Shown here: positions 9,275 through 26,841 of the stretch, one piece after another
How positions within the stretch are numbered: position 1 is the stretch's first letter
How the letters are laid out: each line of letters opens with the position of its first letter
DNA from: a virus
Lineage: Duplodnaviria; Caudoviricetes
DNA: 51,594 bases
Strand: one strand, 5' to 3'
Virus record (IMG/VR): IMGVR_UViG_3300048834_000016
Span: 1-51,594 of that record
Program-made: the position numbers and the translations under genes
The notes under the pieces: generated by a model
Database searches by the model: none
What the model saw: the letters and a program-made list of their open reading frames with translations, nothing else
What the model was told of the DNA's origin: nothing

Positions 9275-9773
9275 CCCCATCTCCTAGACACATCTTGGCT
9301 TCATACATCCGTCTATTATACAGCCCCTGTACAAACTTCCATTCACCATTCTTCTTTACATAGCTCCATACAGGCTTACCACTAGGAGCTTTATACATAG
9401 CATAACAAGCTTCTGTATATCTTCCTTCGTTATAAAGCTTTGCTGTCCTACTAGAACAAAATCCACTAACACCTATGTTATAGGCCATTAACGTAAATGC
9501 ATCATGTGTGTGTTGTTGTAAAGGCTTAGTAATACACTTCAATACACCATTACTATGTGTAGTAAGTTCTTTACGAAGAAAGGCATTACATTCTTCTACA
9601 CTGTATTTCTTATTGAACACAATATCTTTACCAGTGTACCCTTGACACACTGTAGGAATCCCTGCTATGTCGTAATAAGCATAATACCTAGTACCTTCCC
9701 ATAAAGCAGCACTACTTACTAACGAAGCTGTTACTACACCTACAAGCCATTTGTTATTCTGTATTATTGACAT
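9258..9773 (-). CDS. Endolysin, GH24 lysozyme, probably SAR type
   Basis: E-x8-D-x5-T triad (EGTRYYAYYDIAGIPT), YNIG and GLYNRR motifs; weakly hydrophobic N-terminus. Confidence 0.88.
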   Translation of the reverse strand: MSIIQNNKWLVGVVTASLVSSAALWEGTRYYAYYDIAGIPTVCQGYTGKDIVFNKKYSVEECNAFLRKELTTHSNGVLKCITKPLQQHTHDAFTLMAYNIGVSGFCSSRTAKLYNEGRYTEACYAMYKAPSGKPVWSYVKKNGEWKFVQGLYNRRMYEAKMCLGDGDAKLD

Positions 9774-9972
9774 CTTTACCTCTAAACTTATTCACCATTG
9801 CTGCAATGGCATTATAAGCTTTAGGGATTTTCTCAATAATAATCAATATTGATACTACAGCAGATAGAATCAAAATCCATTGCTCTAATGGAATACCAAA
9901 CAAACCTAAAGCTGCTGGACCAAGTGCTGTCGCAACCTTAGCACTTTCTGGAATTCTTTCATAAATTTCCAT
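9754..9972 (-). CDS. Holin
   Basis: 72 aa with hydrophobic segments and a charged tail, overlapping the endolysin start. Confidence 0.7.
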   Translation of the reverse strand: MEIYERIPESAKVATALGPAALGLFGIPLEQWILILSAVVSILIIIEKIPKAYNAIAAMVNKFRGKDVNNTE

Positions 9973-9997
9973 ATTACCTTTCCTATTATACTAAAAC

Positions 9998-10020
9998 GTA
10001 TATTCACTTCGTTCATATAC
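9998..10020 (-). other. Hairpin with tandem G.A pairs and GAA triloop
   Basis: Minus strand GTATAT-GA-AC-GAA-GT-GA-ATATAC. Confidence 0.45.
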
Positions 10021-10055
10021 ATCCTCTCAGTGCCCGAAGGGCGTGTTAGCACATG

Positions 10056-10091
10056 CTTGAGCATACTCTTGAGAATATACTTAAGTATATA
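10056..10091. repeat. Three tandem 12-bp repeats (CTTRAG core)
   Basis: CTTGAGCATACT, CTTGAGAATATA, CTTAAGTATATA at 10056/10068/10080. Confidence 0.8.
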
Positions 10092-10196
10092 CAAAGGGAA
10101 GAAAAACCTATTATTCTTCAATGTTGTAATTTCTTGTAGAAATTTAGAAGCTGCAATGCATACTAGTACAAGTACCCCTACACCCCTACTATACCT

Positions 10197-10233
10197 CTTG
10201 AGTATATCCTTGAGAATATACTTGAGAATTATT
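10197..10233. repeat. Second array of three 12-bp CTTGAG repeats
   Basis: CTTGAGTATATC, CTTGAGAATATA, CTTGAGAATTAT at 10197/10209/10221. Confidence 0.8.
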
Positions 10234-10302
10234 CTTATTACTATTGCTGAATGATAATGAGAATTGGTTGCAATACCCCCTCTCAATGATTTTCATTTAG
10301 TC

Positions 10303-10343
10303 TGTGCATATCCTGTGCATATCTTATCCACAACTTATCAACC
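10303..10343. promoter_or_regulatory. Cluster of DnaA-box-like 9-mers
   Basis: Perfect TTATCCACA at 10324; inverted TGTGCATAT at 10303 and 10314; TTATCAACC at 10335. Confidence 0.55.
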
Positions 10344-10549
10344 AACACTGGTTACAAACCCGCATGGATGCTAGCGATTGTCTCTAGACGCCTTCGGCAT
10401 TACATATATATGCGAGTGACAACGAGCGCATGCGAAGCATCCTATAAACACTGTATGTAATTGCATATATACATGGTGCGGCATAGCATGCTATATTCTC
10501 CCTTGTGTTGGATGTCGTGTTGCTTATATGCAACACATGAATTTGGGGG

Positions 10550-10578
10550 TTGACAATCCTTTTGTTCTATGCTCTAAT
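10550..10578 (+). promoter_or_regulatory. Sigma70 early promoter P1
   Basis: TTGACA-17 bp-TCTAAT with TGn extension. Confidence 0.65.
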
Positions 10579-10613
10579 ACATTCATGCATCGGGTCATCG
10601 TGCCTTGTGCATA

Positions 10614-10627
10614 GGCTCTTTAACAAT
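10614..10627 (+). promoter_or_regulatory. boxA (Nus antitermination) element
   Basis: GGCTCTTTAACAAT matches rrn boxA (GYTCTTTAANA); about 30 nt after the expected P1 start and preceded by a hairpin. Confidence 0.7.
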
Positions 10628-10727
10628 GTAGCGTGTGTGTCTAGCGTTGCTTACGTCGTGCGGTGCGGTTACCCGGTAAGGCTGACAATGCACAAGCTCT
10701 AGCCCTTGAATGTGGCATCAATAGAGC

Positions 10728-10757
10728 TTGACAGTGACAACAAATACACGCTACATT
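10728..10757 (+). promoter_or_regulatory. Possible sigma70 promoter P2
   Basis: TTGACA-18 bp-TACATT. Confidence 0.4.
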
Positions 10758-11206
10758 AGAGCCATTCGTTAGCTATACATCGTGATAGCTGACAGGGCAT
10801 ACATGTTATGCCGCCCTTTAACAATTAGACTGTGTGAATAGGTGCAACAATTGATTGCCCTATTCCGTTACACCCTACCTTATGCGAAAACCGCAGGGAT
10901 ATGCACGTACATAGGATGCTATGCGTGTGTGTCTTGTGCCTGAGTATGCGGACAGGACGGGTTATAGAATGGAATAGATCAACAATCAATACATGGCCTA
11001 TGGAAATCCGCTAGATATTCTCGAACCGGTGATTAATTACAGCACAGTCTTATTTGTTCGTTAACAATTCATCATTCTGAAAATCATCTAGTCCAATGGG
11101 CCTCGATTAATAGATGATAGCATCACCCGCTAATACATTCCCTAGCATCCTATAATGTATTATGGCGTTAGCTATTGTCCTTTGATTGATTCACCGGCGG
11201 GGATGG

Positions 11207-11235
11207 TTGACAGAATGGTTTTCTTAGTGCATAAT
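11207..11235 (+). promoter_or_regulatory. Sigma70 early promoter P3
   Basis: TTGACA-17 bp-CATAAT upstream of the first early ORF. Confidence 0.6.
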
Positions 11236-11277
11236 TTAACCATGTTCTAAGCAAACTGTTCTGAAAAGGAAATTAAA

Positions 11278-11406
11278 ATGGAATACTACTTCTTCAACGA
11301 TGATGCACCAGAATACAATCAACGTATGGATAACATTCGCAATTCATACATAGGATGGATTGACGGTGCATTAGTTTGTACACTTGAATTGTTGCCAAAG
11401 GAATAA
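11278..11406 (+). CDS. Small early protein (42 aa)
   Basis: AAGGA RBS; MEYYFFNDDAPEYNQRMDNIRNSYIGWIDGALVCTLELLPKE; below the ORF-track cutoff. Confidence 0.6.
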   Translation: MEYYFFNDDAPEYNQRMDNIRNSYIGWIDGALVCTLELLPKE

Positions 11407-11488
11407 CTCACAACAAATGGTTCTATAATAAGAGCCATTGATTGTGCGCTATTGCACAGCTATGCCTTATTAGGTAAAGGAGAATATC

Positions 11489-12052
11489 ATGGCGTTTGAT
11501 AAAAATGTATTTGAAGGTAAGTTTAAGGTCAGCATGGGCAAGCTGGCACAAGGGGAAAAGACTGTTCGTGAGGAATTGAATTGGGCTAGTCGTGCTGTGC
11601 TGGAAGCCCTGCATTCCACGGAGAATATCGGTTATGTCAATCAATTGATTGGTGTTCTTACGCCTGTCAATCGTAAGGCTGCCATTGTTTTCTTCAAGCA
11701 TTTTGGTGGCTTCCATTATGACGATGCCACTGCCATGTTCACAAAGAAAAGCAAAAAGCGTTACGATCAAGCGCATCGAGATGCTATTGCATTCTTGCAA
11801 GACCCGAATAACAATATGTTTAGCTGGGCACAGCGTCATATTGAAATTGAGCAAAAACCTTTTGATCCGACATCATTCAAACGTGGTTTTAAGAACTACA
11901 TTGCGAAGCATTTGCAACAAGCGAAAGATAATGGCCTTGACCAGAAGGAATTGCTTGCCATTATGTTCGAAGCCGGTGTTGAAGTTGATGCCATTGTGGA
12001 TGTTATGGCTAAGGCAGGCATGGTTGATGTGAAGGAAGCCGAACAAGAATAA
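11489..12052 (+). CDS. Early hypothetical protein
   Basis: 187 aa, AAGGAG RBS. Confidence 0.8.
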   Translation: MAFDKNVFEGKFKVSMGKLAQGEKTVREELNWASRAVLEALHSTENIGYVNQLIGVLTPVNRKAAIVFFKHFGGFHYDDATAMFTKKSKKRYDQAHRDAIAFLQDPNNNMFSWAQRHIEIEQKPFDPTSFKRGFKNYIAKHLQQAKDNGLDQKELLAIMFEAGVEVDAIVDVMAKAGMVDVKEAEQE

Positions 12053-12120
12053 GCGACAGTTTCGCATATACATTGTAAACAGTGTATATGCTAGGCGATG
12101 TTGCCTACTGGAGAATTAAC

Positions 12121-12324
12121 ATGCAAACTCATACCATCGTGCGTCCTGTTGCTAACGCCCTTATCAATGCCTTTGTGGCTTATGGGAAGAATGATACGCC
12201 AATCACCAATGCCATTGATAAGGCGTGGCATGCTGGCCAGCACAAGGCCAAGCGTAATAATTGGAATGCTAGTTTGTCCTTCAAGACTGCCCAAAAGTTG
12301 AAGGCTCAAGGTATTCTAGTGTAA
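12121..12324 (+). CDS. Early hypothetical protein
   Basis: GGAG RBS before ATG at 12121 (MQTHTIVRP...). Confidence 0.7.
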   Translation: MQTHTIVRPVANALINAFVAYGKNDTPITNAIDKAWHAGQHKAKRNNWNASLSFKTAQKLKAQGILV

Positions 12325-12349
12325 CGTATACACATTTTAAATAAATAAT

Positions 12350-12381
12350 AGCCCCTAGATGTAAAAGTCTAGGGGCTTTTA
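12350..12381 (+). terminator. Rho-independent terminator ending the early unit
   Basis: AGCCCCTAGA/TCTAGGGGCT stem followed by TTT. Confidence 0.8.
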
Positions 12382-12411
12382 CTCGTCTTCACTTTTTCAC
12401 ATAGGTACTAT

Positions 12412-12600
12412 ATGCGTCACAGCTCCATTGTTGTTCTCGATAATTCCATACGCAATTGTTGGTATGGTCAAGGGGAATTTGGTCTAAGTGCTGGATTACA
12501 GGCTAGTGCAAATATGAAAAAGAAACGTGATAGCTCAGACAAGGTGAAGTGGCAGGCTGGAGTTGTTTCCAAGATGTCTATCCCTAGTTCTTTATTCTGA
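12412..12600 (+). CDS. Hypothetical protein
   Basis: 62-aa ORF with AGGT RBS. Confidence 0.4.
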   Translation: MRHSSIVVLDNSIRNCWYGQGEFGLSAGLQASANMKKKRDSSDKVKWQAGVVSKMSIPSSLF

Positions 12601-12743
12601 TAAGGGAGAGTATATTATAGAATAATATAATATATCGAAACCTACGTTCCTCTCTCACATTCGTTCGTTCGTCTCTCCGCCGTTTCTATACTTACGTAGA
12701 GAACTAACCCGAAATTCACTCACTTTTAGCCAAAAGAATTCAA

Positions 12744-13910
12744 ATGATTGCACTCACAATAGAGAATCGTAAAGTTGGAATGAAAGTTGTTATCAATCCT
12801 GAAAAGATAGAACATTATATAGAAAGATTTACTGAAGGTAAGCTATATATTATTGAAAACTTTAATGGACAATGTATCTATATTCGTGACGATAATAATG
12901 ATCTACGAGTAATGTATACGTATCGTTTTTATATCTATGAGGAACCTGTTGAAATGATTAAGGTAAATGATTACGTTAAGCGTAAAGATGGTGTTGAAGG
13001 AGTTGTTATCAACATCTATCCCTCTGGTTTGATTCGTCTTAGCACGAAGAAGGGTACGTATAAGAAGGATGGATTCATTAAGACTGTTCCTCCTGTTGAT
13101 GTACCTGTAGTTGATTATGCTTTACTTGATAAACTTGCAATTGGCAGTGGACAAGGTGTTTGTTCTTACGTTGTTGTTGGCAAGGATGATGTTAAGTATT
13201 TTGCACGTAATCAAGCATGTGCTTCTTCCCTCGGAGCGTATGGTGTTATTACTAAAAATAAGATTAAAACTATTGGGTTTAATATCTCTAGATATCTAGA
13301 CCGTGTAGGGGATTACAAAAAGGAATTTAATTCATTCCTCAAATATGTTGTATTTGAAAGCCCTTGGTCTAAGTATTACGTGAAGGATACTATTGAGAAT
13401 ATTCTTAAAAAGGGAATCTTTCTGGATGTAAACCATCCTCACAGCCATGTTGTAGCTGCGCATATTGCACTACGTATCGGATATGAGCACAGCAGCAGTC
13501 GTCTGAAAGTATTTCAAGAAGCTATTGATCAAGGATTTTCCGGTCATGTGGCTTTCATTGTCTCTCAGTCCACTTACCTAAATCCTGATAATGTCCTGAA
13601 GGCATTGGATAACAACGGTTGGCACCATTGCATGAGCAGTCAACACTCTGTTAATGATATTGTCTCCTTTTTCAAGAATGGTTACAAGGAGAGCGAGGAA
13701 CCTCATACTTCTGAAGGTCTTAAACGATATTCAATTCAAGAGAGTATTGGAGTGCAAGAGGGTAATGAAGAAAGTGTATTTAATCTTCTGAATTCTGATG
13801 TTATTAACTCTTATATACCTGGTGCATTTGGACAGAAACCTAAGATTATCAAGGGTTCATTTGAAGTGGCAGTAGCTAAGGCGTGTACGCTTATTGCCTC
13901 TAAGTTCTAA
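12744..13910 (+). CDS. Hypothetical protein
   Basis: 388-aa ORF heading the amidoligase cluster. Confidence 0.75.
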   Translation: MIALTIENRKVGMKVVINPEKIEHYIERFTEGKLYIIENFNGQCIYIRDDNNDLRVMYTYRFYIYEEPVEMIKVNDYVKRKDGVEGVVINIYPSGLIRLSTKKGTYKKDGFIKTVPPVDVPVVDYALLDKLAIGSGQGVCSYVVVGKDDVKYFARNQACASSLGAYGVITKNKIKTIGFNISRYLDRVGDYKKEFNSFLKYVVFESPWSKYYVKDTIENILKKGIFLDVNHPHSHVVAAHIALRIGYEHSSSRLKVFQEAIDQGFSGHVAFIVSQSTYLNPDNVLKALDNNGWHHCMSSQHSVNDIVSFFKNGYKESEEPHTSEGLKRYSIQESIGVQEGNEESVFNLLNSDVINSYIPGAFGQKPKIIKGSFEVAVAKACTLIASKF

Positions 13911-13916
13911 ACAATA

Positions 13917-14001
13917 GCGAGAGTGGTGGAATTGGCAGACACACCAGATTTAAAATCTGACGACGTAAGTTGTACGGGTTCGACTCCCGTCTCTCGCACC
14001 A
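13917..14001 (+). tRNA. trnL: tRNA-Leu(TAA)
   Basis: GCGAGAG/CTCTCGC acceptor stem, anticodon loop TT-TAA-AA, long variable arm, GTTCGA, CCA. Confidence 0.92.
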
Positions 14002-14032
14002 ATTCATTAACAGTAAGAAAGAAAGAGCTATC

Positions 14033-14668
14033 ATGTCTAAGAAATGTTACATCGTTGGCGGTGGTTTTGGTGATTACGAACGTTTGTTCCAGGAGCTTGG
14101 ATTTACCATTGAACCTAGCGTACTTAATGATAAGCTGGAACCAGTTGATTTGATTGTGTTCACTGGTGGTGAAGATGTAACTCCTAGCTTGTACGGTGCT
14201 AAGGATCACCCAACGACATTCAATAATATCCGCCGTGATGCTATTGAACAGCAAATCTTCACTAATGCCGTGTTTAACAACATCCCTATGGTGGGTATCT
14301 GTCGTGGAGGGCAGTTCCTTAATGTTATGTCTGGAGGGGCTATGTATCAGCATGTCCAAGGACATACACACTCCCATTCAATTACAGACGCTACAACAGG
14401 CGAAGTGGTGTACGTGTCATCTACCCATCACCAAATGATGAAACCCTCCTCTAAGGGCGTTCTGGTGGCTTCTAGCACCATTGGAGGGGAACGTGAATGG
14501 TTTGAAGGTGATGTATTCATGCGTGATGTGTCTAATCAGGACATTGAAGTGGTGTATTACGAAGAAACTAAGTGTCTCTGCTTCCAGCCTCATCCAGAAT
14601 TCTATGGAGCTGAATATGAGGGTATGAAGATGTATTTCAAATCTCTGTTGGAGCGTTTCTTCGGATAA
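14033..14668 (+). CDS. Class I glutamine amidotransferase (peptidase C26-like)
   Basis: FTGGEDV, GICRG nucleophile elbow, HHQ and HPE motifs. Confidence 0.88.
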   Translation: MSKKCYIVGGGFGDYERLFQELGFTIEPSVLNDKLEPVDLIVFTGGEDVTPSLYGAKDHPTTFNNIRRDAIEQQIFTNAVFNNIPMVGICRGGQFLNVMSGGAMYQHVQGHTHSHSITDATTGEVVYVSSTHHQMMKPSSKGVLVASSTIGGEREWFEGDVFMRDVSNQDIEVVYYEETKCLCFQPHPEFYGAEYEGMKMYFKSLLERFFG

Positions 14669-14677
14669 ATTATAATT

Positions 14678-14752
14678 AGGACGTTAGCTCAACGGTAGAG
14701 CAGAGAACTCATAATTCTTTGGTTAGGGGTTCGATTCCCTTACGTCCTACCA
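14678..14752 (+). tRNA. tRNA with CAT anticodon (probably Ile2; elongator Met possible)
   Basis: AGGACGT/ACGTCCT acceptor stem, loop CT-CAT-AA, CCA; lacks initiator features. Confidence 0.88.
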
Positions 14753-15092
14753 ATTCATTGTGTATTTCTTTATGACAATTTGAACATAATAATACACATT
14801 TATCTAACTCTTCTGTAATAGAGTTCCAAGACCTTAATCTTAATTTCCTCCAATCGAAATCCTTACCTTCAGGATTAACATGATGAAATTCTAAGGCTCC
14901 ATAATATTTATTGTATCCGCAAGATATGCAACAACCTCCTTTATATTGTATGGCTTCTAATTTACGATTTTTCCATCTATCAATCTGATACTGTAACAAG
15001 CATTTTTTACAATAAGATTGGTAACGGTTTTCTGATTTTCTAAAATAAAAATCAGATTTATCTTTATCTTCTTTACAATTACTACATTTCAT
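14709..15092 (-). CDS. Free-standing HNH endonuclease
   Basis: CxxC zinc motifs, LEFHH...LCSNCHKEIH; lies antisense between two tRNAs. Confidence 0.8.
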   Translation of the reverse strand: MKCSNCKEDKDKSDFYFRKSENRYQSYCKKCLLQYQIDRWKNRKLEAIQYKGGCCISCGYNKYYGALEFHHVNPEGKDFDWRKLRLRSWNSITEELDKCVLLCSNCHKEIHNELVGRKGIEPLTKEL

Positions 15093-15167
15093 ATGGGTGT
15101 CGTATAATGGAAAATACATCGATCTTCTAAATCGAGAATCTAGGTTCAATTCCTAGCATCCATACCA
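15093..15167 (+). tRNA. trnR: tRNA-Arg(TCT)
   Basis: ATGGGTG/CATCCAT acceptor stem, TCGAT-CT-TCT-AA-ATCGA arm, GTTCAA, CCA. Confidence 0.88.
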
Positions 15168-15260
15168 TTAACTCCTATAATTTATAGGATTAACCAAAAC
15201 ATTCTAAACAATACAGTACAACTGGTGAAATTACCAGGTACGGATAATGGAGATTTTATT

Positions 15261-16556
15261 ATTTGTGGAATCGTAGGTGTAGCTGGTAAAATTACCATTA
15301 AAGAAGAACGTGTCCTTAAAACTCTTCTTATTCTTGATACTCTGAGGGGTATTGACAGTACAGGCGTTGCTGTTGTGCCACGTATCGGAAATGTTAAAGT
15401 GACAAAGGAACTAGGTAACGCTTATAGTCTCCTAGATACCAAGTCATATGATAAAGTAATGATGGGGGCACACAGAGCTATCATAGGTCATAATCGTTTT
15501 GCAACACAAGGTAGTGTCTCTAAACGTAATGCTCACCCTTTTGATTTTGACGGTATTGTTGGAGTGCATAATGGGACATTGAAGAACAAATATAAGCTGC
15601 TTGATTCTAAAGATTTTGATGTAGATAGTGAAAACCTGTATCACCACATCAATCAAAAGGGATTACGTGATGCAATTAATGTTATCAGCGGTGCTTGGGC
15701 TCTAGTGTGGTGGGATAAATTTGAAGAGAGTATTAATTTCCTCCGTAACGAAGAACGTCCACTATATCTCACTCGTAGTGTAGGTGGAGAAACGTTGTTC
15801 TGGGCTTCTGAACTGTGGATGCTTCAAGTAGCGTGTTCACGAGAAGATATTAATATTGAACAACCTGTCATCCTTCAAACAGATATGCATCACAGCATCC
15901 GTATTGATGATACGGGTAAAATGGATAAGGTGGTAGTGACTCCGATGGAAGCAAAAAAGCTCCCGGAAATCACGAACCACCCTTTTTATCAGAATGGGAC
16001 CTATGGTAATCACCATAAGCGTAATGTTCTTCAACTTCCTAATAAGGATTCATCAAAAAACAACGGGGTGGTTCCCGAAACAGCCTTCAAAGTAAAACAC
16101 TTGAAAGTTGGTTACGAAAACTCAAAGAACGCTTCGCTTGAAGTGAAGGGTTATGGTACTGACTCTTTCGGAGCTACATATTATATCTGTGAAGACATTG
16201 AGAATGTCAATCTAGATGTACGTTTGTATTACAATTCTCGTGGAAATAGTAAAGAGAATGTAGGAACTAAAATCACATGTGATATTGGTGAACTCAAAAT
16301 ATCTGTAAAAGATGGTAGTTATTACAAAGTTGTAGCTTCCTCCGTAAAAGTTATTGAAGATAAACCGGCTAAACACACCTATCGTACTAGTCGTGGTGGG
16401 GATGTAGATTATAATACATGGATGGGGATTCACGGTACGTGTGACTGTTGTGGTGGTAATGTATTTCCATCTGAACAATACAAGTTTACGAAGGATCATG
16501 GGATTATTTGTGAATCTTGTGCTGAAGATAAAGAACTTGTAAGTATGTTTTGTTAA
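15261..16556 (+). CDS. Class II (Ntn) glutamine amidotransferase domain protein
   Basis: CGIVG, RGIDSTG, GHNRFATQG, HPF, HNG and DSE motifs; proposed ATT start at 15261 after GGAG (ORF track uses GTG 15225). Confidence 0.88.
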   Translation: MCGIVGVAGKITIKEERVLKTLLILDTLRGIDSTGVAVVPRIGNVKVTKELGNAYSLLDTKSYDKVMMGAHRAIIGHNRFATQGSVSKRNAHPFDFDGIVGVHNGTLKNKYKLLDSKDFDVDSENLYHHINQKGLRDAINVISGAWALVWWDKFEESINFLRNEERPLYLTRSVGGETLFWASELWMLQVACSREDINIEQPVILQTDMHHSIRIDDTGKMDKVVVTPMEAKKLPEITNHPFYQNGTYGNHHKRNVLQLPNKDSSKNNGVVPETAFKVKHLKVGYENSKNASLEVKGYGTDSFGATYYICEDIENVNLDVRLYYNSRGNSKENVGTKITCDIGELKISVKDGSYYKVVASSVKVIEDKPAKHTYRTSRGGDVDYNTWMGIHGTCDCCGGNVFPSEQYKFTKDHGIICESCAEDKELVSMFC

Positions 16557-16566
16557 TGGAAGGTAT

Positions 16567-16908
16567 ATGAAATACTCTATTCAAGATATGAAAGAAGAAT
16601 TTGACGTGGAAGAAATTCCAGGTTGGTGTGCTTCTTCTAAGGTATCGGGCGTGTCAGATAAGCATGTTCCATACCTCTCTTATAGAACTTTTATGGCTTT
16701 TCTTCAGGAGAGGGACAAGGACGCATCTGTATTTACAATCTCAGTTAATGAGAAAGAAGTAGCTCTTATCGAATTTCTTACTAAAAATAAGTGGATTCAA
16801 GGGCCGTGGTTTAGAAATTGGGGCCATAAAGGTCGTAAGACTTGTATGTTTTTTAAACAAGTTTCTAAGGCTAGTTTCATCAAGGCCGGTGGTCGGCCAT
16901 TCGATTAA
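16567..16908 (+). CDS. Hypothetical protein
   Basis: 113-aa ORF with RBS, in operon. Confidence 0.7.
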   Translation: MKYSIQDMKEEFDVEEIPGWCASSKVSGVSDKHVPYLSYRTFMAFLQERDKDASVFTISVNEKEVALIEFLTKNKWIQGPWFRNWGHKGRKTCMFFKQVSKASFIKAGGRPFD

Positions 16909-16930
16909 TCATTTATATTAGGAGAATATC

Positions 16931-17722
16931 ATGGAATTTCTTATCGGTTGTGATCCCGAAGTGTTTGTTAAGCGTAATGGTGTATTTAAATCTGCTCATG
17001 GTTTGATTAAGGGGGATAAGAAGAATCCTCAGAAGGTTAATAAGGGAGCTGTCCAAGTGGACGGCATGGCGTTGGAATTCAATATTGATCCTGCTGCTAG
17101 TGAGGATGAATTCTGTATCAATGTTCAGGAAGTGTACAGTATTCTGTGTAAGATGGTACCTGAATATGAAGTTGTGGCTACTCCTGTAGCTCATTTTGAT
17201 CTTTCCTATCTAAAGGAGCAACCGAAGGAAGCTCTTGAGCTTGGTTGTGATCCCGATTTTAACGCATGGAATGGCAGGGCTAACGATCGTCCTGATGGTG
17301 ATCGTCCCATGCGTACTGCCTCTGGTCATGTGCATATTGGTTGGGCTGATAAGCACGATATTAATGATCCAACACATCAAGCTATGGGTAAGGAAGCTGC
17401 CAAGCAAATGGATTTCTTCTTGGGACTCCCTAGTTTGATGTATGATGATGACAAGGAGCGTCGTGAAATGTATGGTAAGGCTGGTGCCTGCCGATTCAAA
17501 CCTTATGGTGTTGAATATCGCACACTATCTAATGCATGGCTAAAGAGTGAGAAACTTATGCGTTGGGTTTTCCGTAATGCACAAGTAGGTATGCATAAGC
17601 TGGCTAATGGTGAAAATCTCGCTAGTAAATACGGAGATATTCAAGCTATCATTAATACTTCTGATAAGAAGGAAGCTATGAAGATTATCAACAAAGAAGG
17701 AATTGAGATTTGCTATGGCTGA
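16931..17722 (+). CDS. phiEco32-like COOH.NH2 ligase type 2
   Basis: IGCDPEVF, LEFNI, GCDPDFN, GHVHIG and KPYGVEYRTLSN motifs. Confidence 0.85.
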   Translation: MEFLIGCDPEVFVKRNGVFKSAHGLIKGDKKNPQKVNKGAVQVDGMALEFNIDPAASEDEFCINVQEVYSILCKMVPEYEVVATPVAHFDLSYLKEQPKEALELGCDPDFNAWNGRANDRPDGDRPMRTASGHVHIGWADKHDINDPTHQAMGKEAAKQMDFFLGLPSLMYDDDKERREMYGKAGACRFKPYGVEYRTLSNAWLKSEKLMRWVFRNAQVGMHKLANGENLASKYGDIQAIINTSDKKEAMKIINKEGIEICYG

Positions 17723-18341
17723 AATGAACGAACGTGACATTCAACGTGACATTGTTGGTACGTTGATGAATGTTAAAGACACCCTAGGATTTATTCGTTC
17801 TGTACAAGATCTAGAGGAAGACGGTATTGCTGTACGTTATCTCGATGTAAAGGATAATAATATCAAGGGCTGTAAGTTTTCCTTAGACACTATTAAACCC
17901 ATCAATGGACGTATCGGAATGATTAACGATGGTAATGGGGGCGTGTATTACACTATCCGTAACCCTAGTCGTAAGATGATTATCGGGATGAACTGGAGTA
18001 ATTCCAGTCTTATCACAGTGACACGTTCTAATTCTGAATATGATTTTGAGGATGTTCGTAACTTCCGTAATAAAGGATGGATTGATGCGTTTAATAACTC
18101 ATATCCTACCCTTTCTAAAGCCTTAGCACTTGCTAAGAAGTATGAAAGCGGCTGTGCATTTGATAAGCAGTTTGCTGTTGACTGTGAAGGGCATATTTAT
18201 TACAAGGCGGAAGGGATTGTTGGCGTTCTTAGTGGTAAATATAAAACAGTAAAGAACATCTCTTGGCTCCCTGGTAAAGAACACCTAGCAATTATTTTGG
18301 AAAATGATTATGAAAAAACTGTACGAACTTTTCAACCTTAA
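17715..18341 (+). CDS. Hypothetical protein
   Basis: ORF overlapping both neighbours in the operon. Confidence 0.7.
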   Translation: MAEMNERDIQRDIVGTLMNVKDTLGFIRSVQDLEEDGIAVRYLDVKDNNIKGCKFSLDTIKPINGRIGMINDGNGGVYYTIRNPSRKMIIGMNWSNSSLITVTRSNSEYDFEDVRNFRNKGWIDAFNNSYPTLSKALALAKKYESGCAFDKQFAVDCEGHIYYKAEGIVGVLSGKYKTVKNISWLPGKEHLAIILENDYEKTVRTFQP

Positions 18342-19260
18342 GCAAACTGCTGGTGATGTTGGTATTGAAATTGAATGTGAAGGAAATAATCTAAACCCTG
18401 TCAACGTAAATGGTTGGAAAACCGTTGATGATAATTCTCTTCGTGGAGATTTTCCCCACTCTCGTTGTGAGTGGGTGCTGAATAAGCCTATTGATGTGGA
18501 AGATGTGCTACCAGCTATGCAATGGTTGGAAGATAGTCAACGAGCTGCTCATCCGGCATTCTCTTTCCGTACTAGCGTTCATGTTCACGTTAATGTTCAA
18601 CAACTAACTGTTAATCAGATTGTAAATATGGCATACACATATTTCATCTGTGAAACAGTTATGATGAATTATTGTGCACCACATCGCCGAGGCAATCGTT
18701 TCTGTTTGCGAATGGAAGATGCAGAAGGTATTCAGAAATTCTTTACCAAGCTAATCTCTTATCAAGAAAATCATTGGTATATTCTAAATCCTAATGATTC
18801 TGTTCGTTACGCTGCCCTTAATTTTGAGGCTATGTGGAAGTATGGAAGTATTGAATTTCGTGGATTAGAAGGTACACTGTCTCCTGAGAAGATTAATAAT
18901 TGGGCTAGTGCATTGGTGATGATTCGTGAGTTTGCTAAACGATTTGATAATCTACAACAGATTCATGATTTCTTTGTTAAGAGCAGCCCTAATATGTTCT
19001 TGGACAATGTGCTTGGTGGTTATTCTGAAGCATTTAAATATGATGGATTTGCTCAGGATTTGCGTAAAGGTTTTTCTCTTACGATTGACTTCCCTTATGC
19101 ATTCAAGAAAGAGGCCGATATTCCTGTAGCTAAACCTGCCCTTGTTGAGCGTATTCGTAGGGTGGCCCAAGCTAATCCTAGAAATATTCTAAGACCTGTT
19201 GTAAATTTCAATAATATTATTTTTGATGAGGTAGGTGACCATAACCTTTTTCAACGGTAA
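18310..19260 (+). CDS. Putative amidoligase (COOH-NH2 ligase fold)
   Basis: GIEIE, DNSLRG, SVHVHVN, RYAALN and YGSIEFR motifs. Confidence 0.85.
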   Translation: MKKLYELFNLKQTAGDVGIEIECEGNNLNPVNVNGWKTVDDNSLRGDFPHSRCEWVLNKPIDVEDVLPAMQWLEDSQRAAHPAFSFRTSVHVHVNVQQLTVNQIVNMAYTYFICETVMMNYCAPHRRGNRFCLRMEDAEGIQKFFTKLISYQENHWYILNPNDSVRYAALNFEAMWKYGSIEFRGLEGTLSPEKINNWASALVMIREFAKRFDNLQQIHDFFVKSSPNMFLDNVLGGYSEAFKYDGFAQDLRKGFSLTIDFPYAFKKEADIPVAKPALVERIRRVAQANPRNILRPVVNFNNIIFDEVGDHNLFQR

Positions 19261-19264
19261 ATAT

Positions 19265-20005
19265 ATGAAACTCTATCCATACAATCAAGGCAGTAAGTCT
19301 GCCAAAGCTCTTGCTCAATCTCTTGGTATCAAGCGTATCAAGCATGAAGGTAAACGTCTACAAGTACTAGGAGGTCTGATTAATTGGGGCTCCTCTGGTT
19401 TTGTACGTAACATCGCACATGATGGTGTGTTCAATTCACCTGACTGTGTAGCTGTAGCAGTAAACAAGCTACAAGCGTTTAAAGCACTAGATGGCCATGT
19501 TAGTATTCCTGAATGGACAGAGAGCCCTGTAGAGGCTTCTAAGTGGCTTGCTGAGGGTGTTACTGTTATTGCTCGTACTAAACTTACAGGACACAGCGGA
19601 GAAGGTATTATTATTGTAGAGGAGGAGGGAGAGATTCCTCCTGCCCCTCTATATGTTAAATATATCCCGAAGACTGAGGAATATCGTCTCCACGTATTTC
19701 GTGACAAGGTGTTCTTTATCCAACAGAAGAAACGTAATAAGGACATTCCTGACGACAAAGTTAATTGGAAGGTACGTAATCATGGTAATGGCTTCATCTA
19801 CGCTCACAAGGATGTAGTGGAAAACAGGATTGCTAAGATTTGTGCTATCATGTCTATTAAGACACTAGGCTTGGACTTTGGTGCTGTTGATATGATTTAT
19901 AATAAAAAGCAAGATAGGTTCTACGTACTGGAGGTTAATACGGCTTGCGGTCTTGAAGGTACCACTCTTGAAAAGTATGTTGAAGTGTTTAAGGAATTTG
20001 TATGA
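19265..20005 (+). CDS. ATP-grasp ligase (RimK-like)
   Basis: NKL, GHSGEGI, YVKYIP..EYRLHV, GLDFGAVD and LEVNTACGL motifs. Confidence 0.85.
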   Translation: MKLYPYNQGSKSAKALAQSLGIKRIKHEGKRLQVLGGLINWGSSGFVRNIAHDGVFNSPDCVAVAVNKLQAFKALDGHVSIPEWTESPVEASKWLAEGVTVIARTKLTGHSGEGIIIVEEEGEIPPAPLYVKYIPKTEEYRLHVFRDKVFFIQQKKRNKDIPDDKVNWKVRNHGNGFIYAHKDVVENRIAKICAIMSIKTLGLDFGAVDMIYNKKQDRFYVLEVNTACGLEGTTLEKYVEVFKEFV

Positions 20006-20211
20006 GCGTTGTTCTTAAAAAACTTCCATACAGAGTATGGGTGAATCAACCAAGCATTTACCAACCCTATCATAAACATCACGGTCGTATAGGACTGCTA
20101 GTTGAAAGAGAGAACGGAGAAGTCATTATATATTTCTTCACTAATAGTTTAAATTCAGATACCATGTCTATGCACATTTCCTTAAACGCAGTTTCAAAAT
20201 CATTTGTATGA
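20002..20211 (+). CDS. Hypothetical protein
   Basis: ATGA-coupled 69-aa ORF. Confidence 0.6.
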   Translation: MSVVLKKLPYRVWVNQPSIYQPYHKHHGRIGLLVERENGEVIIYFFTNSLNSDTMSMHISLNAVSKSFV

Positions 20212-20381
20212 AAAAGTCTCATATTTGGGCAGTTTATTTTGACATTCCTGATGACAAGTTAGGTTGGTGCAGAGGGTATACAGGACTAACCAAAGATATA
20301 GCAAGAAAATATGTAAAGGAAGGTAGAATTATATACCCAAGATCTAAGTGGAGAATTGTTAAGGAATATGTATATGTATAA
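20208..20381 (+). CDS. Small hypothetical protein (57 aa)
   Basis: ATGA-coupled; MKKSHIWAVYFDIPDDKLGW... Confidence 0.55.
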   Translation: MKKSHIWAVYFDIPDDKLGWCRGYTGLTKDIARKYVKEGRIIYPRSKWRIVKEYVYV

Positions 20382-20742
20382 TCAACAGGAGAGAGCACAG
20401 GCAGCGCCTGCCGCTGTGGCGGCGCCGAGCGGGTACGGCCCGAAGGTGACCGTTAAGCGCAGGTGCTCCGACTGCAAAGCATGCAATTCGGAAAGCTATG
20501 CCGTGCAGGGTGACAGCGGGCATTACGTCTACTGTGAACATCCATCATTGCCAGAGCGCAAATACATAGGCGACACCAATTGGAATACACCTCATTGGTG
20601 CCCGGTCTCCGCGCCTACCACCCAGCCAGAACTCCAGCCCTCGCCCGCAGCGCAGGGGGGTGCGCCGGAGTCGGAGTATCGGCGCGGTTACCGCCACGGG
20701 TACGAGCAGCGCGATGCTGAAGTGCGGGGAGCCTTGGCATGA
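20374..20742 (+). CDS. Hypothetical protein (AT-rich start fused to a GC-rich body)
   Basis: AAGGA RBS; AQAAPAAVAAP and PSPAAQG linkers; Cys/His motifs. Confidence 0.65.
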   Translation: MYNQQERAQAAPAAVAAPSGYGPKVTVKRRCSDCKACNSESYAVQGDSGHYVYCEHPSLPERKYIGDTNWNTPHWCPVSAPTTQPELQPSPAAQGGAPESEYRRGYRHGYEQRDAEVRGALA

Positions 20743-20984
20743 CCGCACAAATTTTTATCGCCCTATTTGGCGTCACTGCGGTATTCCTTTCGCAGTCAGC
20801 ATTTGCTGTACGGCGTCGCTGGGCGTCCGTATTTGGCTTGCTCGGCCAGCCTTTCTGGTTTTACTCAGCGTGGGAGACGCAGCAGTGGGGGATTTTCACT
20901 CTCTGCTTCCTTTACACGATTTCGTGGTCCAAGGGATTCCACACCAACTGGATCGCCGCCCGCGCAGCACAGGAGGGCAAGTGA
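20739..20984 (+). CDS. Small membrane protein, possibly PnuC/SWEET-like 3-TM unit
   Basis: Three hydrophobic segments; GLLGQPFW and QWGIF motifs. Confidence 0.6.
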   Translation: MTAQIFIALFGVTAVFLSQSAFAVRRRWASVFGLLGQPFWFYSAWETQQWGIFTLCFLYTISWSKGFHTNWIAARAAQEGK

Positions 20985-21157
20985 TCAGAATCGCCATCAC
21001 TGCACTTCTCGGAGTCGCCCTGATGTATGCGTTGTTCGCCTTCATCCTGTGGGATTTTGACCCGTACACATGGGGCTTAGGAGGCAGATATTTATTTGCG
21101 ATCTTTGCAACCATAGCCGCTTGCGCCTCAGCAGCAATACTGAAGGGAATTCCATGA
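20981..21157 (+). CDS. Small membrane protein
   Basis: GTG start after GGAGG; two TM segments. Confidence 0.55.
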   Translation: MIRIAITALLGVALMYALFAFILWDFDPYTWGLGGRYLFAIFATIAACASAAILKGIP

Positions 21158-21588
21158 CCACTGACACCCAACCCCTGGCGCCAACAGACGTCGAACTGAT
21201 GGATCTAGCACACGAATGTGAACTGGACGCTATCGAATTTGGCCGCGCAGCCCTCGCAAAGTGGGGTACACCTGTAGGGGCGGGAGAAGTGGTGGCGTGT
21301 GGAAATTGCGGCGGGACTGGATGGATGGTGCGCGACCCTGACATCGGCACCGATCAGGAGTGTTTTGTGTGCAACGGTGAGTGCTATTCAGAGTCAGTCA
21401 CCCCGCAGCCCACACTGGTGCAGGCCGGGGCGGTTCCGCTGACGCCAGATCAAGTTGTGGAAATCGCAGACGCAGCCCACCGCGAATACGACCGACTTGT
21501 TTCTTCGGGCCAATGTGCTCCGCGATGGTCGGCGGTATTCGCGCACTTGCTTGAGATACACCACGGAATCAAAGGAGGCCAGTCATGA
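21154..21588 (+). CDS. Hypothetical protein with DnaJ-like CxxCxGxG zinc finger
   Basis: CGNCGGTG...CFVCNG; ATGA coupling. Confidence 0.65.
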   Translation: MTTDTQPLAPTDVELMDLAHECELDAIEFGRAALAKWGTPVGAGEVVACGNCGGTGWMVRDPDIGTDQECFVCNGECYSESVTPQPTLVQAGAVPLTPDQVVEIADAAHREYDRLVSSGQCAPRWSAVFAHLLEIHHGIKGGQS

Positions 21589-21977
21589 CTGACTATGAGT
21601 TGTTGGGATGCGTTGCGGAAGCTATGCACAATTTGAAAGACCCAAACTTTTGCAACTACTCAGTGGTAGATGGGAAAACGGGTGTTTGTCTTGATCTAGG
21701 CTTCCGCAGAGGGGCTATCACTTCCTACTGGAACCCGCTCACCAATGACGGAGACGCGCTGCGGATGGTTTGCGATCTTGGTCTTCGCGTATTTCCGATT
21801 GCAAGGACACAATCTGGTGCTGCATGTAGTGCTGTTTGCTCCGTTACAAGCGAGCGATTATCAGAAGTTGCTGACGCATCGCTTGACACTTACACCGCCA
21901 CCCGCCGTGCCATCGTTCTAGCTGCTGCGGAGATTGGGAAGCGAATCAAAGGAGGTCAGCATGGCGTCAGTCATTAG
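21585..21977 (+). CDS. Hypothetical phage protein
   Basis: WNPLTNDGDALR and ATRRAIVLAAAEIG motifs typical of temperate-phage accessory genes. Confidence 0.7.
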   Translation: MTDYELLGCVAEAMHNLKDPNFCNYSVVDGKTGVCLDLGFRRGAITSYWNPLTNDGDALRMVCDLGLRVFPIARTQSGAACSAVCSVTSERLSEVADASLDTYTATRRAIVLAAAEIGKRIKGGQHGVSH

Positions 21978-21986
21978 GAGAAACAC

Positions 21987-22166
21987 ATGAATGAAGATCA
22001 ATGGGAGAAAATTGATTGTAATAAGGCTCTTGATGCTCTTATAGACGCATATCATTTCAAATCTGAAAGTGGAAAGAATTATCTGATTAATTTCATTAAG
22101 GATGTGGAACTAATTAAACGTTCTCAAGTCAAACAGGTTCCAGCTTTGTTTAAGAAGGAGAATTAA
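21987..22166 (+). CDS. Small hypothetical protein (59 aa)
   Basis: AGGAG RBS; MNEDQWEKIDCNKALDAL... Confidence 0.6.
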   Translation: MNEDQWEKIDCNKALDALIDAYHFKSESGKNYLINFIKDVELIKRSQVKQVPALFKKEN

Positions 22167-22167
22167 T

Positions 22168-23814: not shown

Positions 23815-23838
23815 TAATATTAAGAAAGGGGGTTAACC

Positions 23839-24312
23839 ATTCTCCCACTAATTGAAGAGCATTACAGGAACAATTACACTAAGCTTGTGAAGAAGATGGG
23901 CTTTCGTACTGGAAGTTTATGGGCTGGGGAGGATGTTGTTCAAGCAGCATATGAACGAGCTATTAAATATCATCGTCAGTTCTCTAAAGAAGAGTTTGCT
24001 AAATGGTTTAGTATTGTATTGAATAATGCATTACGTGATTATATGTCTGAGGAACGTGGATATGTCCCTAATACTGGAGATGAAGAAGAGCCAGAAGAAG
24101 GATGTCCTCACTATCCCAAACAAATTACTAGAGAGATTCTTATTCGTATCGATAAGAAGCCTCAAGAGCAGCGTGAGATTTTGATGTTATATTTTAAACA
24201 AAAATATTCAGCAAAGGATATTGCAAACATTACAAATCATACGTATGCAAAGAGCTATCATATCATTGAACGTTTTCGTAGTGAATTAAAAGAGGTATAT
24301 CGTGACTCATGA
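23839..24312 (+). CDS. Phage ECF-like RNA polymerase sigma factor
   Basis: EDVVQAAY, FAKWFSIVLNNALRD (region 2) and REILMLYF..YSAKDIA (region 4 HTH); proposed ATT start. Confidence 0.75.
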   Translation: MLPLIEEHYRNNYTKLVKKMGFRTGSLWAGEDVVQAAYERAIKYHRQFSKEEFAKWFSIVLNNALRDYMSEERGYVPNTGDEEEPEEGCPHYPKQITREILIRIDKKPQEQREILMLYFKQKYSAKDIANITNHTYAKSYHIIERFRSELKEVYRDS

Positions 24313-26529: not shown

Positions 26530-26537
26530 GGAATAAT

Positions 26538-26753: not shown

Positions 26754-26761
26754 GGAATAAC

Positions 26762-26830
26762 ATGTTCAAGACATTTAATGGTTGGAAGAAGGTGGGCCGT
26801 TTTGTCAAGAAGACTATTGAAATTCGTTAA
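26762..26830 (+). CDS. Possible 22-aa peptide
   Basis: AAGGA RBS; MFKTFNGWKKVGRFVKKTIEIR fills the intergenic gap. Confidence 0.45.
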   Translation: MFKTFNGWKKVGRFVKKTIEIR

Positions 26831-26841
26831 TAAGGAAATAT

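What the first reader, a model, noticed from the sequence alone, without database searches (positions are those of the whole stretch)
10585..11270. rRNA-operon-like noncoding unit: three boxA elements with long stems enclosing structured RNA domains
Seen: after promoter P1, ~700 nt with no ORF of 60 aa or more. A hairpin (10585-10612) precedes boxA-1 GGCTCTTTAACAAT. The stem AATGTAGCGTGTGT/ATACACGCTACATT, plus GGCTCT/AGAGCC, then closes a ~105-nt branched domain containing CAAGCTCTA/TAGAGCTTG. Two small hairpins precede boxA-2 CGCCCTTTAACAAT. The stem AGACTGTG/CACAGTCT closes a ~210-nt domain with a possible four-way junction (CTATTCCGTT/AATGGAATAG enclosing three hairpins). boxA-3 TGTTCGTTAACAAT precedes ATCATCTA/TAGATGAT and TAATACATT/AATGTATTA hairpins. 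Established: boxA recruits the NusB/NusE/SuhB antitermination complex in rrn operons, where RNase III stems release the enclosed RNAs. Inference: among the first transcripts is a polycistronic precursor of two or three small structured RNAs matured like rRNA, possibly host-takeover or anti-defence decoys, or a Nus-factor sponge. I do not recognise it as a known RNA family. This is the best candidate for an undescribed system.
Basis: partly seen in the sequence, partly recalled or inferred. Interest (0 to 1): 0.78.

Follow-up and report, generated by a model that had tools for sequence, protein, structure and literature searches.

The report
Phage early leader copying rRNA-operon signals
The gene-free 0.7 kb in front of this phage's first genes is a folded RNA leader made of three repeated units that copy the "keep transcribing" signal and enclosing RNA stems of bacterial ribosomal-RNA operons, so the phage probably borrows the host's rRNA transcription machinery for its early genes.

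Summary
Observation confirmed. Window 10550-11243 has no conserved ORF. It holds three sigma70-type promoters and three boxA elements on the + strand. The one at 10615 is the only perfect GYTCTTTAANA match in the 51.6-kb genome.

Each boxA follows a helix and runs directly into the 5' strand of a long-range helix: S1 10614-10638/10744-10763, S2 10823-10834/11043-11054, S3 11071-11093/11196-11219. These enclose 105, 208 and 102 nt. The 3' strands of S1 and S3 overlap promoters P2 and P3.

Two metagenomic relatives keep all three helices with compensatory changes (84-95% of cells paired, against 27-50% when partners are slid). Variants in four metagenome runs are mostly wobble-compatible on the + strand only. 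The same grammar recurs in distant Zobellviridae, but the enclosed sequences do not.

Best reading: an rrn/T7-type, Nus-factor-dependent anti-Rho leader of the early operon, with leader-trailer-like helices. Binding, antitermination and RNase III cutting are untested, and no RNA data were available.

This scan noted the same kind before in phiEco32-like and Pseudomonas phages. In print I found only T7's single boxA. Verdict: new variant of a known kind.

The parts
10550..10578 (+). Promoter P1: -35 TTGACA at 10550-10555, 17-nt spacer, -10-like TCTAAT at 10573-10578; inferred start near 10585.
   Evidence: Read. The -35 is invariant in the 3-way alignment. The tool's scan does not list it because position 2 of the -10 is not A. 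In L014 and L002 a perfect TATAAT sits 19 nt after the -35, an unusual spacing.
10585..10612 (+). boxB-like hairpin H1 (9 pairs plus 1 mismatch) with the conserved loop core CATCGT.
   Evidence: MFE fold. The loop is invariant in alignment A2. Variant 10592 G>A turns a G-U pair into A-U. On the MAFFT alignment only 74% of cells pair because the register shifts.
10614..10627 (+). boxA-1. The 11-mer starting at 10615 matches GYTCTTTAANA perfectly.
   Evidence: the consensus was taken from PMC5725501 (passages read). It is the only perfect match on either strand of the 51,594-base window.
10614..10638 (+). 5' strand of long-range helix S1. It overlaps the first half and the last 2 nt of boxA-1.
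   Evidence: RNAduplex E -30.7 with 10744-10763. The homologous helices in L014 (-25.0) and L002 (-23.6) have changed sequence.
10693..10730 (+). Hairpin inside domain 1: a 9-bp stem and a 20-nt loop that is nearly invariant in the three phages.
   Evidence: helix 6: 3 of 8 pairs changed on both sides. In the metagenome contigs 10698 U>C pairs with 10725 A>G. The loop motif has no other copy or complement in the window.
10744..10763 (+). 3' strand of S1. It lies on promoter P2 and ends at about the inferred P2 start.
   Evidence: The same overlap of the 3' strand with the next promoter occurs in L014, L002, L003, L009 and L013.
10728..10757 (+). Promoter P2 (TTGACA, 18 nt, TACATT).
   Evidence: 10 of 12. 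Conserved in place in L014 (2040) and L002 (3257).
10771..10812 (+). Two hairpins (10771-10790 and 10795-10812) directly before boxA-2.
   Evidence: MFE and centroid fold. The second hairpin is kept in L014 with a changed loop (context).
10812..10825 (+). boxA-2, with one mismatch to the 11-mer consensus.
   Evidence: It is identical in L014. L002 has a 2-mismatch form at the same place.
10823..10834 (+). 5' strand of long-range helix S2. It starts inside the tail of boxA-2.
   Evidence: E -16.0 with the 28 nt before boxA-3; 1 of 300 shuffles reach it.
10868..10965 (+). Core of domain 2: a 4-bp hairpin with loop AAAAC, abutting a 17-bp G-U-rich hairpin and then a short hairpin. It is the best-conserved block of the leader.
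   Evidence: 81% mean column identity over three phages. See helices 3-5. No Rfam family matches. Model R1 finds it only in L002 and L014.
11043..11054 (+). 3' strand of S2, ending directly at boxA-3.
   Evidence: The same layout (3' strand abutting a promoter-less boxA) is seen in L003, L009 and L013.
11055..11068 (+). boxA-3, with one mismatch and no promoter of its own.
   Evidence: L014 and L002 carry more diverged forms at this place.
11071..11093 (+). 5' strand of long-range helix S3.
   Evidence: E -22.4. 17 consensus pairs, 100% of cells paired, 5 pairs changed on both sides. Variants 11084 U>C and 11085 C>U keep pairing through wobble.
11196..11219 (+). 3' strand of S3. It overlaps the -35 of promoter P3.
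   Evidence: Variant 11214 A>G keeps a U-G pair; 11198 C>A breaks one pair in run X1.
11207..11235 (+). Promoter P3 (TTGACA, 17 nt, CATAAT), 43 nt before the first start codon.
   Evidence: 11 of 12, the best site. Conserved in L014 (2510) and L002 (3732).
11278..11406 (+). First early ORF (42 aa), the downstream limit of the leader.
   Evidence: In the metagenome relatives this stretch is replaced or diverged while the leader is kept (table 5).

Best explanation
The interval is the untranslated leader of the phage's early operon. It is transcribed by host sigma70 RNA polymerase from three tandem promoters and is built from three rrn-type modules.

Each module is a helix, then a single-stranded boxA, then the 5' strand of a long-range helix whose 3' strand lies 105-210 nt downstream.

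Inferred mechanism:
1. Nascent boxA RNA recruits host NusB/NusE(S10), with NusA, NusG and SuhB, as in rRNA operons and downstream of T7's early promoters.
2. This makes RNA polymerase resistant to Rho over about 0.66 kb of ribosome-free RNA and into the early genes and tRNA genes.
3. Because boxA stays anchored at the RNA exit, the adjoining 5' strand is held ready to pair with its 3' partner when that emerges. This is the model proposed for the 16S leader-trailer helix.
4. The 20-bp helices S1 and S3 are plausible RNase III substrates. Cutting them would leave 5' ends close to those made by P2 and P3.

Shown here: the sequence elements, their strand specificity, their recurrence in relatives, and RNA-level selection on the helices.

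Inferred only: Nus binding, antitermination, RNase III cutting, and the actual transcription starts.
For: (1) boxA. Perfect GYTCTTTAANA matches number 13 on the + strand and 0 on the - strand in 22.9 kb of upstream windows of 15 loci, against 0.08 expected per strand. Only 2 more occur in the other 114.5 kb, and only one in the whole window. In 9 of the 15 loci two or more boxA-like sites, about 100-530 nt apart, cluster upstream of the anchor gene.

(2) Grammar. In the window, L014, L002, L003, L009 and L013 a promoter is followed by a hairpin and a boxA. The helix that starts at that boxA closes on the next promoter. The next helix closes directly against a promoter-less boxA. For that second type, duplex energies are -16.0, -13.0, -10.1, -21.8, -14.9 and -14.7 kcal/mol, reached by 1, 5, 52, 0, 3 and 1 of 300 shuffles.

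(3) Covariation among window, L014 and L002:
- Domain 1: 84% of cells paired (27-50% when slid), 8 pairs changed on both sides.
- Domain 2: 92% (31-43%), 15 pairs.
- Domain 3: 95.5% (37-47%), 11 pairs.
- Shuffles reaching the observed values: 3 or fewer of 500 for cells paired, both-side changes and the covariation score (up to 7 of 500 for further pair types).

(4) Natural variants in contigs of four runs. Seven one-sided changes keep pairing only in the + sense: 10592, 10637, 10749, 10699, 11084, 11085 and 11214. One double change is compensatory: 10698 with 10725.

(5) The + strand folds better than the - strand.

(6) There is no conserved ORF and no terminator-like site in 9700-12200.

(7) Precedent:
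- T7 has a perfect boxA 63 nt after promoter A3, followed by the same TCTGG as several boxAs here.
- Mutations in it change infection outcome (PMC3709561, passage read).
- The boxA-anchored leader-trailer model is in PMC10250234 (passages read).
- The phage has a sigma70-region-2 gene at 23860-24054, consistent with use of host core polymerase.
Against: - No RNA evidence of any kind: no holder is on record as RNA, and the laid 'RNA?' run is flagged 'probably DNA'.
- The host is unknown, so its own rrn boxA could not be compared.
- P1 is not called by the tool's promoter scan. In L014 and L002 its TATAAT sits 19 nt from the -35.
- Promoter-like sites are not enriched in the region (10 found, 8.4 expected).
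- boxA-2 and boxA-3 each deviate from the consensus at one position. The third boxA is more degenerate in L014 and L002.
- Similarity to boxC is not significant: 5 of 29 sites reach 7 or more of 10, against a background of 7.7%.
- For S2, a competing partner inside domain 2 gives a better energy in all three close phages (-19.2, -14.4 and -14.5). L002's S2 is reached by 52 of 300 shuffles.
- picks the best of many windows and had no null of its own.
- Two variants break pairs (10758 A>T, 11198 C>A), and 10696/10727 are ambiguous. 92 further variants were not shown.
- Only three alignable sequences were available. The structures tested were derived from the same sequences.
- L010 and L011 show no boxA within 2 mismatches upstream of the anchor, and L008 only a weak one.
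- The test for a phage RNA polymerase (PF00940) found nothing, but its control also stayed silent, so it is uninformative.
Confidence: 0.7

Rival explanations
1. Mini rRNA-like operon for small RNAs. The stems are RNase III sites that release two or three stable structured RNAs, above all the domain-2 core, which act in trans on the host (take-over, anti-defence decoy).
For: The helices enclose discrete domains. S1 and S3 are about 20 bp long. The domain-2 core and the domain-1 loop keep long stretches of invariant, partly unpaired sequence, which structure alone does not need. In relatives the leader is better conserved than the first ORF (table 5).
Against: There is no RNA data. The content is not conserved beyond close relatives (no blastn match to the distant loci). 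In L005 the same cassette flanks an annotated CDS. No complementary target of the two conserved loops occurs in the phage genome. No terminator separates the domains from the genes. S2 has only about 11 bp.
Confidence: 0.2
2. Nus-factor sponge. Strong early transcription of many boxA copies titrates NusB/NusE/SuhB away from host rRNA operons.
For: There are three boxAs per leader behind strong promoters. This layout recurs in relatives.
Against: Nothing here measures abundance. The tight coupling of each boxA to a helix, and the placement in front of genes, fits cis action. T7 manages with a single boxA.
Confidence: 0.07
3. Lambda-type nut sites. A phage-encoded N-like protein binds the hairpins beside boxA.
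For: Every promoter-proximal boxA has an adjacent hairpin. Within CW02 and L003 these hairpins resemble each other.
Against: The order is hairpin then boxA, as in rrn. In this window the hairpins differ between modules. The third boxA has no local hairpin. No early protein matched a Pfam or PHROG family of that kind, but only 3 small early proteins were scanned.
Confidence: 0.08
4. DNA-level element (origin, packaging or operator repeats), or a string of translated micro-ORFs.
For: In several relatives the region adjoins the genome ends (L004, L005, L006).
Against: The boxAs are 13 to 0 strand-biased. Stem variants are wobble-compatible only in the + RNA sense. Compensatory changes are present. 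No reading frame is conserved.
Confidence: 0.04

Closest known systems
Bacterial rrn operon leader and spacer (boxB-boxA-boxC, rrn antitermination complex, 16S leader-trailer helix cut by RNase III)
   Same: - Tandem promoters.
- A hairpin, then boxA matching the gammaproteobacterial consensus.
- boxA followed by the 5' strand of a long helix that encloses an RNA and closes just before the next boxA.
- A repeated boxA within one transcript.
   Different: - The enclosed RNAs are 100-210 nt and of unknown role.
- The 5' strand starts 0-10 nt after boxA, whereas in 98% of Enterobacteriaceae rRNA leader/trailer pairs 18-19 nt separate boxA from boxC (PMC10250234).
- There is no significant boxC sequence.
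- The 3' strands lie on internal promoters.
- The unit runs into protein genes.
Phage T7 early control region (host promoters A1-A3, boxA, then gene 0.3)
   Same: - A lytic phage with tandem host promoters.
- A perfect rrn-type boxA, with the same following TCTGG as in L003, 63 nt after A3.
- A functional effect of boxA mutations is reported (PMC3709561).
   Different: - T7 has one boxA for three promoters and a short leader.
- Here there are three boxAs, two of them with their own promoter.
- Here long-range helices enclose about 420 nt of conserved folded RNA.
- That T7 has an RNase III site (R0.3) after its boxA is recalled, not seen in a call.
phiEco32 gene-free early region
   Same: A 1.9-kb gene-free region holds 6 boxA-like sites (2 or fewer mismatches) on the early strand and three TTGACA-type promoters.
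   Different: - No nucleotide similarity to this window.
- No phiEco32-like record among the 17 with the anchor protein.
- A different phage family.
- The helix-per-boxA grammar was not examined there beyond best-partner energies.
Lambda nut sites and HK022 put RNAs (phage cis-acting antitermination RNAs)
   Same: A cis-acting RNA signal in the early leader that is expected to modify host RNA polymerase.
   Different: - The element order is rrn-like.
- No N-like protein was found.
- Whether the two adjacent hairpins of the domain-2 core act like put RNA could not be tested.
- The properties of nut and put are recalled.

Membership tests
rrn-type boxA antitermination leader | boxA matching the consensus on the transcribed strand downstream of a promoter | tested here: met
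   There is a perfect GYTCTTTAANA at 10615, and one-mismatch forms at 10813 and 11056. Promoter-like sites lie upstream.
rrn-type boxA antitermination leader | A hairpin (boxB) just upstream of boxA | tested here: met
   Hairpins 10585-10612 and 10795-10812. Equivalent hairpins occur in L003, L009, L013, L014 and L016 (contexts). boxA-3 is instead preceded by the 3' strand of S2.
rrn-type boxA antitermination leader | boxC sequence (UCUGUGUGGG, from PMC10250234) downstream of boxA | tested here: inconclusive
   The best matches are 6, 7 and 5 of 10 in the window. Over 29 boxAs, 5 reach 7 or more, against a 7.7% background.
rrn-type boxA antitermination leader | Leader-trailer helix, supported by covariation, starting after boxA and enclosing an RNA | tested here: met
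   S1, S2 and S3. S3: 17 pairs, 100% paired, 5 compensatory.
rrn-type boxA antitermination leader | Binding of NusB/NusE/SuhB and resistance to Rho | not testable with these tools
   Needs ChIP, in vitro transcription or reporter assays.
rrn-type boxA antitermination leader | RNase III cleavage of the helix | not testable with these tools
   Helix lengths (about 20 bp for S1 and S3, about 11 bp for S2) are compatible for S1 and S3 only.
T7-type early control region | Tandem host promoters followed by boxA before the first early gene of a lytic phage | tested here: met
   The T7 layout was checked.
Lambda-type nut site | boxA followed by a boxB hairpin bound by a phage N protein | tested here: not met
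   The order here is hairpin then boxA. The presence of an N-like protein was not tested systematically.
Any Rfam family | Match at or above the gathering score | tested here: not met
   The window gives only 5 tRNAs. Within 9900-11500 there are three chance-level matches, E 3.1-5.9.

The most novel reading that the evidence does not exclude
The cassettes are a phage 'mini-rrn operon'. Host Nus factors chaperone the folding of the enclosed RNAs, and RNase III then releases them. The released RNAs would be, above all, the almost invariant ~100-nt core of domain 2 and the domain-1 hairpin with its fixed 20-nt loop. They would be among the first phage products in the cell and would act in trans as a new class of early phage small RNAs. 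Successive boxAs would hand the antitermination complex from one module to the next.
Probability: 0.15. Interest if true: 0.8.

Novelty: new variant of a known kind. Interest (0 to 1): 0.56.

Why it matters
Phages of this group have no match to a T7-type polymerase and carry a sigma-factor gene, so they must drive host RNA polymerase through their genome.

A repeated boxA-plus-helix cassette is conserved in layout across Zobellviridae-like phages of Vibrio, Salinivibrio, Erwinia and uncultured hosts, while its contents change. This suggests that hijacking the rRNA antitermination and RNA-chaperoning machinery is a general early-gene strategy of lytic phages, and is not limited to lambda's N system or T7's single site.

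The system also offers a compact natural test of the leader-trailer 'anchored strand' model: helices of 100-200 nt span instead of 1.5 kb.

It also flags conserved folded RNAs of unknown role that are made at the very start of infection.

Tried and rejected
- Nucleotide searches of the phage collection with 10300-11500, near and distant modes, found no match.
- Exact-pattern scans of viral contigs with the domain-2 core found only the L002 contig. A degenerate P3 pattern found nothing; its gap range was set too narrow even for L002.
- The single metagenome scan gave one locus, L014.
Covariation therefore rests on three sequences.
- Covariance model R1 of the domain-2 core found no hit in the 12 more distant loci.
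- The antisense-target search for the two conserved loops in the window was at chance level.
- The boxC similarity was not significant.
- Terminator-like sites in 11000-30900 were 16 against 12.5 expected, so no case for a set of intrinsic terminators to be overcome.
- Sequencing runs: no RNA holder was listed. All 24 listed runs hold less than 0.4 of the words. The four laid runs are contigs, so they show no starts, ends or expression. The small shares in wastewater, sludge and freshwater runs are not used to name a habitat.
- Pfam and PHROG scans of the 187-aa, 80-aa and 42-aa early proteins found no family. The 388-aa protein has only weak PHROG matches of unknown function.
- PF00940 found nothing, but its control was silent.
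- Literature: searches found no description of boxA cassettes in Zobellviridae or phiEco32-like phages. PMC8948821 (passages read) has no occurrence of boxA and says only that an antitermination strategy of phage 7-11 remains to be defined. Supplements were not opened.
Full report
**Setting.** The window is a complete 51,594-bp IMG/VR virus record. Its primase-helicase is about 60% identical to those of Vibrio phages 1.235.O and 1.253.O, Citrobacter phage CVT22 and Pseudomonas phage PA11. Relatives that share the anchor gene used below are classified as Zobellviridae.

The finding lies in a 1.3-kb gap. On one side are lysis and tail genes on the - strand, ending at 9972. On the other are the early genes on the + strand, starting at 11278. 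A sigma70-region-2 gene lies at 23860-24054. A search for a T7-type polymerase found nothing, but its control was silent.

**What is in the sequence.** Reading together gives this order on the + strand:
- P1 (10550-10578), hairpin H1 (10585-10612), boxA-1 (10614-10627).
- Helix S1 (10614-10638 with 10744-10763), enclosing 105 nt that include a 9-bp hairpin with a 20-nt loop.
- P2 (10728-10757), lying on the 3' strand of S1.
- Two hairpins, then boxA-2 (10812-10825).
- Helix S2 (10823-10834 with 11043-11054), enclosing 208 nt.
- boxA-3 (11055-11068).
- Helix S3 (11071-11093 with 11196-11219), enclosing about 102 nt.
- P3 (11207-11235), lying on the 3' strand of S3.
- The first start codon at 11278.

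There is no ORF of 60 aa or more and no terminator-like site in 9700-12200. Rfam gives nothing. The + strand folds at -227.1 kcal/mol (z -5.1) and the - strand at -196.3 (z -3.2).

**Is boxA more than chance?** I used the consensus GYTCTTTAANA derived for gammaproteobacteria (PMC5725501, passages read). The window has exactly one perfect match on either strand, at 10615.

Across the window and 14 related loci, the 1.6 kb upstream of the anchor gene hold 13 perfect matches on the early strand and none on the other. About 0.08 are expected. Only two more occur in the remaining 114.5 kb. With up to two mismatches the sites cluster in twos to fours, mostly 200-250 nt apart. L010 and L011 have none upstream, and L008 has one weak site.

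**Relatives and covariation.** The 187-aa gene at 11489-12052 served as the anchor. It has 17 matching phage records and 89 metagenomic homologues.

Two uncultured relatives align over the whole leader. They are L014 (anchor 78% identical) and L002 (59%), with the alignment. Both keep P1-P3, the hairpins, three boxA-like sites and all three long-range helices, with different sequence in the helices.

Pair counts on the three-sequence alignments:

| Domain | Cells paired | When 3' partners are slid | Pairs changed on both sides |
|---|---|---|---|
| 1 | 84% | 27-50% | 8 |
| 2 | 92% | 31-43% | 15 |
| 3 | 95.5% | 37-47% | 11 |

S3 is the cleanest helix: 17 pairs, none broken, five compensatory.

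Caveats apply. There are only three sequences, the structures came from these same sequences, and MAFFT mis-registers some hairpins.

**Variants in metagenome contigs.** Contigs of four runs, 90-95% identical to the window, give independent variants.
- One-sided changes that keep pairing only for + sense RNA:
  - 10592 and 10637 turn G-U into A-U.
  - 10749, 10699 and 11085 turn a C-G or G-C pair into a G-U wobble.
  - 11084 turns U-G into C-G.
  - 11214 turns U-A into U-G.
- 10698 with 10725 is a double change, U-A to C-G.
- Against: 10758 and 11198 break pairs, 10696/10727 are ambiguous, and 92 variants were not listed.
- In the same contigs the first small ORF is replaced or diverged while the leader is retained.

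**The grammar in distant relatives.** Nucleotide similarity to the window is absent in L003-L013, L016 and L017, apart from an upstream repeat block. A covariance model of the domain-2 core finds nothing there. Yet the layout recurs.

In L003, L009 and L013 (CW02), a TTGACA-type promoter is followed by a short hairpin and a boxA. The strand right after that boxA pairs best with a segment on the next promoter. The strand after the second boxA pairs with the segment that directly abuts a third, promoter-less boxA.

For that second type the duplex energies and shuffle counts are:
- -16.0 (1 of 300), -13.0 (5) and -10.1 (52) in the window, L014 and L002.
- -21.8 (0), -14.9 (3) and -14.7 (1) in L003, L009 and L013.

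In L005 (Pecta) a 23-bp helix (E -39.1) that starts after a perfect boxA flanks an annotated 70-aa CDS. The cassette can therefore enclose coding or non-coding inserts.

In the linear records the genome end lies 0.5-2.2 kb upstream of the anchor, as expected for the first DNA to be transcribed.

**Mechanism.** The published rrn model fits point by point (PMC10250234, abstract and passages read). In that model boxA is necessary and sufficient to assemble the antitermination complex. It stays bound at the RNA exit while the nascent RNA loops out. [quoted passage not shown]

Here the 5' strands start 0-10 nt after boxA. About 0.66 kb of RNA from P1 carries no ribosomes and would be exposed to Rho. 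That is the situation boxA is known to protect in rRNA (abstracts).

P3 transcripts carry no boxA. A strong hairpin followed by TTTT lies at 12351-12382 on the + strand. One inference, untested, is that only P1 and P2 transcripts are equipped to read far. S1 also pairs the first half of boxA-1, in the window and L002 but only 3 bp in L014, so completing a helix may release a used boxA. That too is speculation.

**Comparison with what is known.** T7 carries one perfect boxA 63 nt after promoter A3, with the same five following bases as several boxAs here. Mutations in it make T7 Gp2 dispensable (PMC3709561, passage read; the primary paper PMC2941873 is not held).

phiEco32 has six boxA-like sites and three promoters in its 1.9-kb gene-free region. 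The paper said to show its early transcription (PMC3275717) is not held.

Earlier notes of this scan describe the same kind in phiEco32-like coliphages, and boxA-plus-stem cassettes in Pseudomonas phages. So the scan has found this before on other DNA. My searches found no printed description of such cassettes. Supplements were closed.

**Verdict.** The interval is best read as an rrn/T7-type antitermination leader built of three boxA-helix modules. It is a new variant of a known kind, with good comparative support at the RNA level.

Whether the enclosed RNAs, especially the highly conserved domain-2 core, have a life of their own remains open. I put that at about 0.15-0.2.

Noticed in passing
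window 10056-10077 and 10197-10230: Five + strand copies of CTTGAGAATA-like 10-mers sit at a 12-bp period in two clusters. The window total is 17, against 6.4 expected. Related repeats lie in L002 2590-2740, and the block 10120-10260 is the only part of the gap that is also alignable to L016 and L017. They may be operator or iteron sites, or a signal for the leftward late genes.
   Followed up: partly
window 11383-11480: The stretch between the 42-aa ORF and the 187-aa gene is very conserved: 24 of 24 identical in L014, and kept in all four laid runs. It forms a 9-bp hairpin (11417-11441) with a compensatory change in L002, followed by a second small hairpin. No U-run follows, so it may be a processing or translational control site.
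   Followed up: no
window 12351-12382: A 10-bp G+C-rich hairpin followed by TTTT on the + strand comes after the third early ORF. It looks like an intrinsic terminator that would close an immediate-early unit. The tool lists its - strand reading.
   Followed up: no
window 11278-11383: The first early ORF (42 aa) is replaced by unrelated sequence of similar length, or is strongly diverged, in contigs of runs X1, X2 and X4. The non-coding leader beside it is conserved.
   Followed up: no
L014 1905-2035: L014 carries a 130-nt insertion inside domain 1, right after the conserved hairpin. It partly duplicates the junction with the P2 -35. The modules therefore tolerate inserts.
   Followed up: no
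window 23860-24054: A sigma70 region-2 match (25.5 bits, above the cut-off) lies in a small + strand ORF. The phage probably redirects host core polymerase later in infection, as phiEco32 does.
   Followed up: partly
L005 346-651: In Erwinia phage Pecta, a perfect boxA is followed by a 23-bp helix that brackets an annotated 70-aa CDS (395-604). This is a gene-enclosing version of the cassette.
   Followed up: partly
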